IMG/VR virus record: IMGVR_UViG_3300010396_000003
Location: 64,001 to 128,000 of that record
DNA: 64,000 nucleotides
Source of the DNA: a virus
Taxonomy: Duplodnaviria > Heunggongvirae > Uroviricota > Caudoviricetes
Reading direction: 5' to 3' (one strand)
How positions within the stretch are numbered: the stretch's first letter is position 1; each line of letters opens with the position of its first letter. The notes below the pieces were generated by a model, which had not been told where the DNA came from, did no database searches, and saw nothing but the letters and a program-made list of their open reading frames with translations. Below are positions 14,118-15,962 of the stretch, piece by piece. A program made the position numbers and the translations under genes.

Positions 14118-14191
14118 TGGTAGGCCCGGCAGGTGCTGCCCCTGCGTCCCCTGATTAAAAGTCAGGTAGTCTACTGTTGACTTACGGACCC
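14118..14191 (-). tRNA. tRNA-Lys(TTT) with non-canonical T loop
   Basis: GGGTCCG/CGGGCCT-ACCA; CCTGA-CTTTTAA-TCAGG; T arm GCAGG-GGCAGCA-CCTGC. Confidence 0.9.
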
Positions 14192-15128: not shown

Positions 15129-15228
15129 TGGAGCGTCTGGCGAGATTTGAACTCGCATCAACCAGTTAGAACTGGCTGCTCTGTCGGTTTTAGAGACCGA
15201 TGCTTTCACCCGGTTAAGCTACAGACGC
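15129..15228 (-). tRNA. Amber suppressor tRNA(CTA) with long variable arm, 100 nt
   Basis: GCGTCTG/CAGACGC-TCCA; D stem GCTT/AAGC; TCGGT-CTCTAAA-ACCGA; 27-nt variable region with an 8-bp stem; GCGAG-TTCAAAT-CTCGC. Confidence 0.9.
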
Positions 15229-15237
15229 CTTGTTCTC

Positions 15238-15260
15238 TTAGGAACAATTTTTGTTCCTAA
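15238..15260. other. Perfect 10-bp inverted repeat inside the tRNA array
   Basis: TTAGGAACAA-TTT-TTGTTCCTAA. Confidence 0.8.
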
Positions 15261-15266
15261 AGAAAT

Positions 15267-15311
15267 TGGAGCGGGGTGTGGCTTTGAACCACGTCTTTCG
15301 ACGCACCCCGC
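15267..15311 (-). ncRNA. Mini-tRNA (45 nt), Gly-like acceptor, no D or anticodon arm
   Basis: GCGGGGT-G-CGTC-GAAA-GAC(G)-TGG-TTCAAAG-CCA-C-ACCCCGC-TCCA. Confidence 0.75.
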
Positions 15312-15312
15312 G

Positions 15313-15358
15313 TGGCAGGGGCTTCGGATTTGATCCACGCGCTTTCACGCGAGCCCCT
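15313..15358 (-). ncRNA. Mini-tRNA (46 nt), Trp-like acceptor, no D or anticodon arm
   Basis: AGGGGCT-C-GCGT-GAAA-GCGC-GT-GGA-TCAAA-TCC-GA-AGCCCCT-GCCA. Confidence 0.75.
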
Positions 15359-15359
15359 A

Positions 15360-15412
15360 TGGTGCCGGCGTCCCATTCAAGAGAGCGCGGCGCTAGCTTC
15401 CGCACCGCCGGC
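15360..15412 (-). ncRNA. Mini-tRNA (53 nt), D-armless, CTA centred in its single loop
   Basis: GCCGGCG-GTGCGG-AAGCTAGCG-CCGCGC-TCTC-TTGAAT-GGGA-CGCCGGC-ACCA. Confidence 0.7.
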
Positions 15413-15928
15413 ATTGGTGTGCGCGGTAGGAGTCGAACCTACCTCGATCAATTTAGAGTTGACCTGTCCAGCCGCTGGACCACGCGCACATAAACTGGCA
15501 CGCCCGGTCGGATTCTCACCGACAACTTCTCTGTTTAGATCAGAGCACTCTCGTAGTTGAGTTACGGGCGTATCTTTGTAAACTCGATAATTTGAGAGCA
15601 CCGATCGCGCAACTCCGCTAATCGGCGCCGTACAAATGGCTGTAAATCTTTCTGCTTCGGGAAAGTCTGGTTCAAACCAGCAATAATGTTGAATCTGAGA
15701 TACGGCGAGTTTGCCGGCAACACGTTTAAGTGCGGCCAGATCGGGCACACCAATCAGAACGTGGTTGTTCCAACACTCATTCTGTTGGACTGTATAAGGC
15801 TTATGCGTGAAGCGCATAGTCGCCTGTTCTACTGCATGATTGGATTGGATGATTTGATGCTGGATGGGAAGATCCATCCGAATGAAGGTATAAACGTAAG
15901 GTTCTTGAGAAATCTAGGTAAATGTCAT
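15377..15928 (-). CDS. Pth2-like peptidyl-tRNA hydrolase; in-frame TAG at codon 5; frame continues through the tRNA genes
   Basis: ATG15928 ACA TTT ACC TAG ATT TCT CAA GAA CCT TAC GTT TAT ACC TTC ATT CGG ATG15877 gives MTFT*ISQEPYVYTFIRMDLP..QSNHA..WFEPD..FTAICTAP; ORF track shows only 15377-15877. Confidence 0.75.
15415..15489 (-). tRNA. Amber suppressor tRNA(CTA), A73
   Basis: GTGCGCG/CGCGCAC-ACCA; D stem GTCC/GGAC; GTCAA-CTCTAAA-TTGAT; GTAGG-TTCGACT-CCTAC. Confidence 0.9.
15496..15571 (-). tRNA. Amber suppressor tRNA(CTA), A1-U72, G73, atypical T loop
   Basis: ACGCCCG/CGGGCGT-GCCA; D stem ACTC/GAGT; CTCTG-ATCTAAA-CAGAG; GTCGG-TGAGAAT-CCGAC. Confidence 0.85.
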
Positions 15929-15934
15929 GCCGCG

Positions 15935-15962
15935 AATGTATCACGGAACAAAGCCTTGTCAA
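15935..15962 (-). promoter_or_regulatory. Sigma70 promoter with extended -10; predicted start at the ATG (leaderless)
   Basis: TTGACA (15962-15957), 16 nt ending TGA, TACATT (15940-15935), 6 nt, ATG 15928. Confidence 0.7.

What the first reader, a model, noticed from the sequence alone, without database searches (positions are those of the whole stretch)
15377..15580. Pth reading frame has no stop of its own, so tRNA processing would create a nonstop mRNA
Seen: the Pth-like fold ends near ...LSNYRVYKD. The next codon (ACG) is the first base of the tRNA at 15571, and the frame stays open for about 65 codons through two tRNAs and a mini-tRNA to TGA at 15379-15377. Known: RNase P cuts at tRNA 5' ends, and ArfA is controlled through a nonstop mRNA that tmRNA tags. 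Inference: Pth level may report ribosome-rescue status, as a second control layer.
Basis: partly seen in the sequence, partly recalled or inferred. Interest (0 to 1): 0.75.

Follow-up and report, generated by a model that had tools for sequence, protein, structure and literature searches.

The report
Stop-less phage Pth2 gene fused to tRNA
In a large group of soil phages, a small peptidyl-tRNA-hydrolase-like gene has no stop codon of its own and runs straight into an amber-suppressor tRNA gene, so one RNA can give either the tRNA or the protein, which looks like a built-in control but is not yet tested.

Summary
On the minus strand, a divergent Pth2-family domain ends at 15578. Two codons later, base 15571 is nucleotide +1 of a tRNA(CUA). 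The frame stays open for 64 more codons, through two tRNAs and into a mini-tRNA, to TGA at 15379-15377.

This is not an accident of one genome. Of 98 non-redundant homologous loci, 57 have no stop before an adjacent tRNA-like element, which starts 0-15 nt after the domain. These 57 form essentially one clade. The other 41, including all cultured jumbo-phage members, have an ordinary stop.

The downstream elements evolve as RNAs, with compensatory pair changes, an invariant CUA and an encoded CCA.

Its inference, that Pth level reports rescue status through tmRNA, has no direct support.

Two further facts change the picture:
- The frame is kept open through the whole first element in 49 of 52 loci.

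I favour a competition between read-through translation and tRNA maturation. A tolerated loss of the stop remains a serious rival.

The parts
15957..15962 (-). -35 hexamer TTGACA of the unit's own sigma-70-type promoter
   Evidence: Read from the sequence. The same cTTGACA-N16-18-TAnnnT motif lies 5-7 nt before the ATG in most fused loci. A crude pattern count finds it in 31 of 57 fused loci and 0 of 36 stop-bearing loci.
15935..15940 (-). -10 hexamer TACATT; it ends 6 nt before the ATG, so the mRNA is probably leaderless
   Evidence: No Shine-Dalgarno lies between it and the ATG. Leaderless status is inferred from the spacing and has not been mapped.
15926..15928 (-). True start codon ATG (the gene begins M-T-F-T)
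   Evidence: The first conserved strand of the domain (YVYTFIR) lies upstream of the ATG at 15877, so that ATG cannot be the start. In stop-bearing relatives a Shine-Dalgarno precedes the equivalent ATG.
15914..15916 (-). In-frame amber codon TAG at codon 5
   Evidence: In 100 of 100 non-redundant loci the nearest upstream in-frame stop is TAG. 95 have an ATG within 10 codons before it, and 74 read exactly ATG-NNN-TAG. The same holds in cultured phages CBB, ME3, RsoM2USA and Arash.
15578..15895 (-). Divergent Pth2-family (archaeal/eukaryotic-type peptidyl-tRNA hydrolase) domain
   Evidence: HMM bounds. The profile hits PDB 24bt_A at E=7e-4. 39 of 69 members hit PF01981. The AF2 model has pLDDT 85 and its top Foldseek hits are Pth2 structures at TM 0.73-0.75.
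15572..15577 (-). Two junction codons AAA GAT (K-D) between domain end and tRNA +1; no stop
   Evidence: The gap is 0-15 nt in the 51 fused loci measured.
15496..15571 (-). tRNA(CUA) number 1, with encoded CCA, a non-canonical T-loop (UGAGAAU) and no GG in the D-loop; lies wholly inside the open frame
   Evidence: Rfam 48.7 bits. Acceptor stem plus CCA found. It folds as a cloverleaf next to the ORF 3' end. 17 of 21 pairs covary across 18 homologous first elements, and CUA is invariant.
15415..15489 (-). tRNA(CUA) number 2, canonical, with encoded CCA; also inside the open frame
   Evidence: ARAGORN, Rfam 50.1 bits.
15360..15412 (-). 53-nt mini-tRNA-like element (7-bp acceptor stem, hairpin, T-like arm, ACCA); holds the first in-frame stop
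   Evidence: A related family of 52-nt elements shows compensatory changes in 15 of 16 pairs.
15377..15379 (-). First in-frame stop, TGA, 66 codons after the domain end
15267..15358 (-). Two more mini-tRNA-like elements (15358-15313 and 15311-15267) with CCA ends
   Evidence: Same transcription direction and 1-nt spacers.
15129..15228 (-). tRNA(CUA) number 3, with a long variable arm and encoded CCA
   Evidence: ARAGORN, Rfam 62.6 bits.

Best explanation
**What it is (shown).** The stretch is one compact transcription unit of a 152-kb soil phage. It runs in this order:
1. a promoter that abuts the ATG, so the mRNA is probably leaderless;
2. ATG plus 3 codons, then an in-frame TAG;
3. a divergent Pth2-like domain;
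4. no stop codon;
5. six nt later, nucleotide +1 of a tRNA(CUA);
6. a second tRNA(CUA), three mini-tRNAs and a third tRNA(CUA).

The protein gene is in effect the coding 5' leader of an amber-suppressor tRNA operon. One large phage clade shares the stop-less fusion. Its relatives have the same amber-gated gene with an ordinary stop.

**How it most likely works (inferred).** Each transcript has two mutually exclusive fates.
- If the tRNA folds and is cut out at +1, the tRNA matures. The upstream mRNA then ends without a stop, so any ribosome on it must be rescued by the host.
- If ribosomes get past the TAG, which needs the suppressor tRNA itself, they translate the domain and run on through the tRNA sequence. 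That keeps the tRNA unfolded and uncut, and they terminate only in the next element.

High suppressor activity would therefore make Pth2-like protein and at the same time hold down maturation of more suppressor tRNA. This is a ribosome-mediated feedback.
For: **Architecture**
- establish the layout.

**Conservation of the fusion**
- 57 of 98 non-redundant loci are fused to a tRNA-like element, and the tree needs only 2 state changes.
- The loci were fetched with domain-only queries, so they are not biased by tail sequence.

**The downstream elements are functional RNAs, so a cut at the junction must occur**
- 17 of 21 pairs in the tRNAs and 15 of 16 pairs in the mini-tRNAs show compensatory changes. 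CUA and CCA are invariant.
- The tRNA folds independently of the ORF's 3' end.

**Read-through appears to matter**
- The frame is open through the whole first element in 49 of 52 loci. Other tRNAs in the same loci are open in only 43%, 54% or 14% of cases, depending on phase.
- In 8 of 19 loci the phase used is the only open one.
- At the level of element clusters, 10 of 13 are open against 6.9 expected, P=0.048.
- Gap-length changes favour multiples of three: about 4 of 13 shift the phase against two-thirds expected, P about 0.01.

**Amber dependence**
- TAG is present in 100 of 100 loci. It follows a Shine-Dalgarno-led ATG in stop-bearing relatives, which shows that the ATG is a real start.
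- ARAGORN finds a tRNA(CUA) in the short fetched flanks of 60 of 100 loci.
Against: - There is no expression, processing or protein data of any kind.
- The statistical support for selection on the downstream frame is modest (P about 0.05 and 0.01). It rests on my own clustering of elements and a rough count of indel events.
- The fusion arose once or twice, so its persistence could be inheritance of a harmless state.
- In 16-18 fused loci the first element is a mini-tRNA, not the suppressor. Feedback on the suppressor would then be indirect.
- A ribosome only unfolds the tRNA transiently, and amber-gated, leaderless translation may be too sparse to affect tRNA yield.
- The enzymatic activity of the Pth2-like protein is unknown. 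The window's own protein does not reach any Pfam hit by itself.
Confidence: 0.42

Rival explanations
1. RNase P cuts at tRNA +1 and makes a nonstop mRNA. Ribosomes stall at its end. tmRNA tags the Pth2-like protein for degradation, so active protein builds up only when host trans-translation is saturated or disabled. The logic is that of ArfA, and Pth level would report rescue capacity.
For: - No stop lies before the tRNA in the window or in 57 of 98 loci.
- The tRNA-like elements are functional RNAs that must be cut out.
- arfA is an established precedent for a rescue-related gene controlled through a stop-less mRNA (PMC10107115 abstract).
- The product belongs to a peptidyl-tRNA hydrolase family, which fits a rescue theme. 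Iyer et al. propose such a role for jumbo-phage PTH2 (PMC7824862).
Against: - It does not predict an open frame through the whole first element or the bias towards 3n gap changes.
- 41 of 98 relatives, including every cultured one, have ordinary stops.
- The phage carries no rescue components.
- The amber codon already throttles ribosome flux to the 3' end, so a second tmRNA-based throttle is not obviously needed.
Confidence: 0.2
2. The loss of the stop is tolerated and has no function. An ancestor had gene, stop, 3 nt, then tRNA(CUA), as L030 still does. When the module was compacted behind its own promoter, the stop was lost. Few ribosomes pass the amber codon, so rare nonstop or read-through events cost little, and the state simply persisted by descent.
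For: - The fused state needs only 1-2 origins on the tree.
- The amber gate is older than the fusion and would keep translation flux low.
- L030 shows the presumed precursor layout.
- The tails are not conserved as protein.
- The stop lies at no fixed distance beyond the first element.
Against: - The junction was remodelled many times (gaps of 0-15 nt, at least 8-13 element types, three entry phases), yet a stop was almost never regained.
- The frame into the element stayed open more often than chance.
- The clade is large and old, with protein identity down to about 35-40%.
Confidence: 0.28
3. The long read-through protein is the intended product, and the tRNA-encoded tail serves as a peptide, for example as a degron or localisation signal.
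For: Gene callers in public data predict the long forms, and the window's own cluster is a 146-aa call ending at the TGA. The frame is open through the first element in 49 of 52 loci.
Against: - The tails differ completely in sequence and length (20-110 aa) and simply mirror whichever RNA element follows.
- Those elements covary as RNA.
- 41 relatives lack any such tail.
Confidence: 0.05

Closest known systems
arfA of Escherichia coli (rescue factor made from a stop-less mRNA)
   Same: A translation-rescue-related gene whose mature mRNA has no stop, because an endonuclease cuts inside or at the end of the reading frame. Its output is therefore tied to the host's handling of nonstop complexes (PMC10107115; PMC8012679).
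   Different: - arfA is cut by RNase III in a hairpin inside the ORF; here the cut would be the RNase P cut that matures a tRNA.
- The protein here is Pth2-like, not ArfA.
- The gene also carries a 5' amber codon.
- tmRNA tagging is untested here.
Mitochondrial tRNA punctuation (Ojala, Montoya and Attardi 1981; from my own knowledge)
   Same: Reading frames butt directly against tRNA 5' ends with no complete stop, and tRNA excision defines the mRNA 3' end.
   Different: In mitochondria a terminal U or UA is completed to UAA by polyadenylation. Here 42 of 51 junctions end on a complete sense codon, and the window's mRNA would end in GAU. Adenylation would therefore not make a stop. The frame also stays open far into the tRNA. 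I know of no description of such punctuation for phage or bacterial protein genes, and the library searches found none.
Phage PTH2 genes in tRNA arrays (jumbo phages; cluster C mycobacteriophages)
   Same: An archaeal/eukaryotic-type peptidyl-tRNA hydrolase encoded by phages, often among tRNA genes (PMC7824862; PMC5966550).
   Different: Those papers report neither an in-frame amber codon nor a missing stop. In the cultured members found here the gene is truncated or not annotated at all.
Leader-peptide attenuation and prfB autoregulation
   Same: - A short stretch of translation whose progress depends on the regulated component: a charged tRNA in attenuation, RF2 at an in-frame UGA in prfB.
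- In attenuation the ribosome's position decides the fold of the RNA downstream.
   Different: Here the affected RNA fold would be a tRNA precursor rather than a terminator. The gate is a UAG read by a suppressor tRNA encoded on the same transcript. Both statements are inference.
Suppressor tRNAs of stop-codon-recoded gut phages and their theta ribozymes
   Same: These are phage-encoded tRNA(CUA) genes with dedicated processing elements next to them (PMC10879173 and bioRxiv 10.1101/2021.08.26.457843).
   Different: This phage is not TAG-recoded. Long ORFs are intact under the standard code, and 28 of 139 end in TAG. The amber codon is position-specific in one gene, and the processing partner is a protein-coding leader rather than a ribozyme.

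Membership tests
PTH2 (Pfam PF01981, archaeal/eukaryotic-type peptidyl-tRNA hydrolase) | Sequence-profile similarity to the family | tested here: met
   39 of 69 family members hit PF01981 (best E=1.4e-5). The family profile hits PDB 24bt_A, a peptidyl-tRNA hydrolase, at E=6.9e-4. The window's own protein alone gives no Pfam hit, so membership is at the level of a divergent branch.
PTH2 (Pfam PF01981, archaeal/eukaryotic-type peptidyl-tRNA hydrolase) | Pth2 alpha/beta fold | tested here: met
   The AF2 model has pLDDT 85. The best Foldseek matches are 3erj, 1rlk, 1xty, 2zv3 and 1q7s at TM 0.69-0.75, though E-values are weak at 0.14 or more. The modelled window sequence lacked the first strand.
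PTH2 (Pfam PF01981, archaeal/eukaryotic-type peptidyl-tRNA hydrolase) | Catalytic motifs | tested here: inconclusive
   The Q-x-x-H-A motif aligns with that of the solved enzyme. An invariant acidic E-P-D lies where Pth2 has D-A-G. I did not verify residue roles against the literature.
PTH2 (Pfam PF01981, archaeal/eukaryotic-type peptidyl-tRNA hydrolase) | Hydrolysis of peptidyl- or N-blocked aminoacyl-tRNA | not testable with these tools
   Needs an enzyme assay.
tRNA (Rfam RF00005), for 15571-15496 | Covariance-model score above the gathering score | tested here: met
   48.7 bits against 29.
tRNA (Rfam RF00005), for 15571-15496 | Cloverleaf kept by compensatory changes in homologs | tested here: met
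   17 of 21 pairs show changes on both sides across 18 first-position elements. The CUA anticodon and CCA are invariant.
tRNA (Rfam RF00005), for 15571-15496 | Canonical elbow (G18 G19 and T-loop T-psi-C) | tested here: not met
   The T-loop reads UGAGAAU and the D-loop has no GG. ARAGORN does not call it. Several sister elements do have canonical loops.
ArfA-type control through a stop-less mRNA | No in-frame stop upstream of the endonuclease cut site | tested here: met
   No stop lies between TAG 15916-15914 and tRNA +1 at 15571. The same holds in 57 of 98 loci. The cut itself is inferred, not observed.
ArfA-type control through a stop-less mRNA | Product tagged by tmRNA and degraded; accumulates when trans-translation fails | not testable with these tools
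   No RNA or protein data exist. The phage has no tmRNA or SmpB of its own.
Mitochondria-type tRNA punctuation | Reading frame abuts the tRNA 5' end | tested here: met
   The gap is 0-15 nt in 51 loci and 6 nt in the window.
Mitochondria-type tRNA punctuation | Stop completed from a terminal U or UA by adenylation | tested here: not met
   42 of 51 junctions are in phase 0, so the cut leaves a complete sense codon. The window's mRNA would end in GAU.
Attenuation-like control by a translated leader | Leader translation depends on the regulated tRNA | tested here: met
   An in-frame TAG lies 2-5 codons (up to 8) after the ATG in 100 of 100 loci. tRNA(CUA) genes lie on the same unit. This is sequence-level evidence only.
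Attenuation-like control by a translated leader | Ribosome progress changes the fate of the downstream RNA | not testable with these tools
   There is indirect support only: the frame is open through the first element in 49 of 52 loci and gap changes are biased to 3n.

The most novel reading that the evidence does not exclude
This is a self-contained amber homeostat. The suppressor tRNA's own 5' leader encodes a Pth2-like enzyme that can be translated only if the suppressor works. Because the gene has no stop, those ribosomes run into the suppressor precursor and block its maturation. The Pth2-like enzyme may add a second layer by acting on the unusual CUA tRNAs or mini-tRNAs. Translation and tRNA processing would then compete on one RNA to set the level of UAG read-through in phages that otherwise use the standard code. 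That would also explain the 'orphan' amber suppressors of many large phages.
Probability: 0.3. Interest if true: 0.88.

Novelty: new variant of a known kind. Interest (0 to 1): 0.72.

Why it matters
Protein genes that overlap tRNA genes are normally treated as annotation errors in bacteria and phages. Here a conserved enzyme gene lacks a stop and is butt-joined to a functional tRNA across a large phage clade.

If the competition model holds, it is a new way of coupling translation to RNA processing. It would also be a natural circuit for setting stop-codon read-through.

The finding gives a concrete target for phage-encoded amber suppressors in standard-code phages. The XacN1 authors searched for such targets and found none (PMC5852040).

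There is a practical consequence too. The family is mis-annotated or missed in cultured jumbo phages (Arash, CBB, RsoM2USA, ME3), because gene callers stop at the TAG or run into tRNAs.

Tried and rejected
- **Direct family searches.** Pfam and PHROGs scans of the window protein gave nothing.
- **DNA similarity.** blastn against phage genomes matched only tRNA and SSB fragments.
- **Expression data.** No RNA holder is listed for this stretch. The only runs are soil metagenomes that may be the source of the DNA.
- **Genome-wide TAG recoding.** Rejected. Long ORFs are intact under code 11, 28 of 139 end in TAG, and reading TAG as sense adds little.
- **Re-initiation instead of suppression.** I considered whether the codon after TAG is a re-initiation start. 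It is ATT, ATC, ATG, ATA or GTG in 63 loci but GTT, GTC or GTA, which are not start codons, in 32. I think a conserved Ile/Val/Met, or a purine-U context after UAG, is more likely. Purine at +4 favouring amber suppression is recalled from memory (Bossi; Miller and Albertini) and was not checked.
- **Stop completed by adenylation.** Rejected on phase.
- **ORF 3' end competing with the tRNA fold.** Not seen.
- **First tail statistic.** The median tail of 36 codons in 155 proteins is biased, because the query included the tail. I replaced it with loci fetched using domain-only queries.
- **First 'fused' label.** A label based on tail length of 20 or more miscalled 12 ordinary genes that have protein extensions. 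This was corrected.
- **Complex prediction.** Not attempted, because no protein partner is in question.

Full report
**1. The observation.**
On the minus strand the frame ...LSNYRVY-K-D continues as ACG CCC GTA... and meets no stop until TGA at 15379-15377. Rfam places a tRNA at 15571-15499 (48.7 bits against a gathering score of 29). With its encoded CCA the element is 15571-15496. Its anticodon loop reads CUA. ARAGORN misses it, probably because the T-loop is UGAGAAU and the D-loop has no GG.

The frame then crosses a canonical tRNA(CUA) at 15489-15415 and ends inside a 53-nt mini-tRNA at 15412-15360. For this window alone, 64 open codons in tRNA-rich sequence is not improbable; I estimate about 0.08. 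Everything therefore depends on comparison with other loci.

**2. What the protein is.**
The window protein alone hits nothing in Pfam or PHROGs. It nevertheless belongs to a family of at least 190 clusters at 50% identity.
- A 69-member profile hits a solved peptidyl-tRNA hydrolase (24bt_A, E=7e-4).
- 39 of 69 members individually hit Pfam PTH2.
- An AlphaFold model (pLDDT 85) finds archaeal Pth2 and human Bit1 as its best structural matches, at TM 0.69-0.75.

It is a divergent Pth2-type protein. Phage PTH2 genes, some inside tRNA arrays, are already known (PMC7824862, PMC5966550).

**3. Do homologs keep the stop-free frame?**
I fetched DNA for homologs with domain-only queries, so the sample is not biased by tail sequence. 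Cultured phages were added. Among 100 non-redundant loci with a complete domain, 98 have enough flank to classify.
- 57 have no stop before an adjacent tRNA-like element.
- 41 have an ordinary stop.

In 51 fused loci a 7-bp acceptor stem with N-CCA starts -2 to 15 nt after the last domain codon, and in 14 loci the gap is 0 nt. The element is a full tRNA(CUA) in about half of these loci. In the others it is a 52-nt mini-tRNA or some other tRNA-like RNA.

On a tree of the domain the fused state needs only two changes, so it is essentially one large clade (for the smaller set).

The stop-bearing relatives include all cultured members:
- Salmonella phage Arash
- Pectobacterium phage CBB
- Cronobacter phage GAP32
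- Ralstonia phage RsoM2USA
- Acinetobacter phage ME3
- Xanthomonas, Erwinia, Serratia and Yersinia jumbo phages

Locus L030 shows a plausible precursor: domain, three codons, TAA, 3 nt, then tRNA(CUA).

**4. The downstream sequence is RNA genes, not a protein tail.**
The protein tails are unrelated in sequence and length. They read as translated tRNA: PVAQ comes from the acceptor and D arm, and GSNP or GENP from the T arm.
- Across 18 first-position tRNAs, 17 of 21 base pairs show compensatory double changes, and CUA and CCA are invariant.
- Across 14 mini-tRNAs, 15 of 16 pairs covary.
- The window's tRNA folds as a cloverleaf in the context of the ORF's 3' end.

Bacterial tRNA 5' ends are made by RNase P (textbook knowledge). 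Maturation of these RNAs therefore must cut the transcript 0-15 nt after the last domain codon and leave an mRNA fragment without a stop.

**5.

*(a) The gene starts further upstream and carries an amber codon.* The family's first strand (x-Y-x-F-V-R-x-D-L-P) lies upstream of the ATG at 15877. The frame opens at ATG 15928-15926 and reads M-T-F-T-TAG-I-S-Q-E-P-Y-V-Y-T-F-I-R....
- In 100 of 100 loci the nearest upstream in-frame stop is TAG.
- 95 have an ATG within 10 codons before it, and 74 read exactly ATG-NNN-TAG.
- The next codon is Ile, Val or Met in 95.
- Stop-bearing relatives, cultured phages included, have a Shine-Dalgarno before that ATG (30 of 36). This shows that the ATG is a real start.
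- Fused loci mostly have no Shine-Dalgarno (46 of 57). Instead a cTTGACA-N16-18-TAnnnT promoter ends 5-7 nt before the ATG, which implies a leaderless mRNA. In the window the -35 is at 15962-15957 and the -10 at 15940-15935.

The phage is not TAG-recoded.

*(b) The frame into the first element looks protected.*
- Other tRNAs in these loci are open over their whole length in 43%, 54% or 14% of cases, depending on phase.
- The first elements are open in 49 of 52 loci.
- In 8 of 19 loci examined in detail, the window included, the phase used is the only open one.
- Treating element clusters as the independent units, 10 of 13 are open against 6.9 expected (P=0.048).
- Gap lengths within element families differ mostly by multiples of three: full tRNAs have gap mod 3 of {0: 20, 1: 6, 2: 2} and minis {0: 17, 2: 1}. 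About 4 of 13 inferred changes shift the phase against two-thirds expected (P about 0.01).

These tests are modest and rest on my own clustering. A model in which the RNA is always cut before ribosomes arrive predicts neither result.

**6. Mechanism.**
I read the unit as a tRNA operon whose 5' leader is a coding, amber-gated gene.

*Shown:*
- the architecture
- its conservation
- the RNA nature of the elements
- the amber codon

*Inferred:* each transcript either
- matures its tRNA, which leaves a stop-less and probably short-lived mRNA fragment, or
- is read by ribosomes that passed the UAG. These then run through the tRNA sequence, keep it unfolded and terminate in the next element.

Passing the UAG needs the suppressor. 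High suppressor activity would therefore produce Pth2-like protein and restrain further suppressor maturation, which is a feedback.

The nonstop route is the other branch of the same competition. The phage brings no tmRNA, SmpB or release-factor-like gene.

A serious rival is that the stop was lost once, when the module was compacted behind its own promoter, and is merely tolerated because the amber gate keeps ribosome flux low.

My odds:
- competition/feedback: about 0.42
- tolerated loss: 0.28
- tmRNA-sensing: 0.20
- functional tail peptide: 0.05

**7. Novelty.**
Library searches found no description of an amber-gated Pth2 gene or of a phage or bacterial ORF that runs stop-less into a tRNA. 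The XacN1 paper reports CUA suppressors with no identifiable target (PMC5852040).

The nearest known kinds are arfA-type nonstop control and mitochondrial tRNA punctuation. The mitochondrial mechanism fails here: 42 of 51 junctions leave a complete sense codon, so adenylation cannot make a stop. I class the finding as a new variant of a known kind. The homeostat reading would be categorically new if shown.

**8. Limits.**
- All fused members are metagenomic, mostly from soil.
- There are no expression data.
- Enzyme activity, tRNA charging identity and RNase P cleavage are all untested.
- The large tree is poorly resolved, with 99 columns for 98 rows.

Noticed in passing
window 15914-15928 (minus strand); all loci L001-L119: There is a family-wide, position-specific amber codon. 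ATG plus 1-4 codons (up to 7) is followed by an in-frame TAG and then Ile/Val/Met, in 100 of 100 non-redundant loci. These include cultured phages on standard-code hosts (CBB, ME3, RsoM2USA, Arash). This gives phage amber suppressors a concrete target gene.
   Followed up: yes
L035 (Salmonella phage Arash), L036 (Pectobacterium phage CBB), L037 (Ralstonia phage RsoM2USA), L038 (Acinetobacter phage ME3): The family is mis-annotated in GenBank. In Arash it is split into gp85c and a 50-aa 'peptidyl-tRNA hydrolase' gp84c. In CBB the N-terminus is cut off. In RsoM2USA no gene is called at all. In Arash a tRNA annotated as Phe is read by ARAGORN as CUA.
   Followed up: partly
window 15129-15571 (minus strand): Three different tRNA(CUA) genes sit head to tail with 1-38 nt spacers: one with a non-canonical elbow, one canonical, and one with a long variable arm. 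Three mini-tRNAs of 45-53 nt lie among them. All have encoded CCA ends. The genome is not TAG-recoded.
   Followed up: partly
alignment A4 (first-position tRNAs of 18 loci, incl. window 15496-15571): T-loops of the tRNA(CUA) directly fused to the gene vary widely (UGAGAAU, UAUAAGC, UGCGACU, GGCGGGU and others). They often lack T-psi-C, and the matching D-loops lack GG. All four stems covary cleanly, so the elbow seems to be released from the usual constraint.
   Followed up: no
alignment A5 (52-nt elements of 14 loci): A conserved family of 52-nt mini-tRNAs has a 7-bp acceptor stem, a 5-bp hairpin with a CAA-type loop, a 4-bp T-like arm and NCCA. 15 of 16 pairs covary. It is often the first element after the gene. 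Its function is unknown.
   Followed up: partly
window 14121-14191 (minus strand): Rfam finds a further tRNA (49.8 bits, anticodon UUU) that ARAGORN misses. Its T-arm reads GGGGCAGCACC, again non-canonical.
   Followed up: no
L009:251-682: The public gene call for this homolog (P0003) was made with TAG read as Gln. The 'Q' at residue 5 is the conserved amber codon. Some pipelines therefore assign such contigs to code 15 on weak grounds.
   Followed up: no
G000:C1:44935-57850 (outside the window): The same phage has a second, dense array of 34 ordinary tRNA genes covering most amino acids. ARAGORN tRNAs in all, in a 152-kb genome with direct terminal repeats.
   Followed up: no
L083, L085, L089, L097-L112 and related loci: One subclade of the family has an ordinary stop and is followed by a protein gene, whose start overlaps the Pth2-like gene's 5-42-aa C-terminal extension, instead of by a tRNA. 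It still carries the 5' amber codon.
   Followed up: partly
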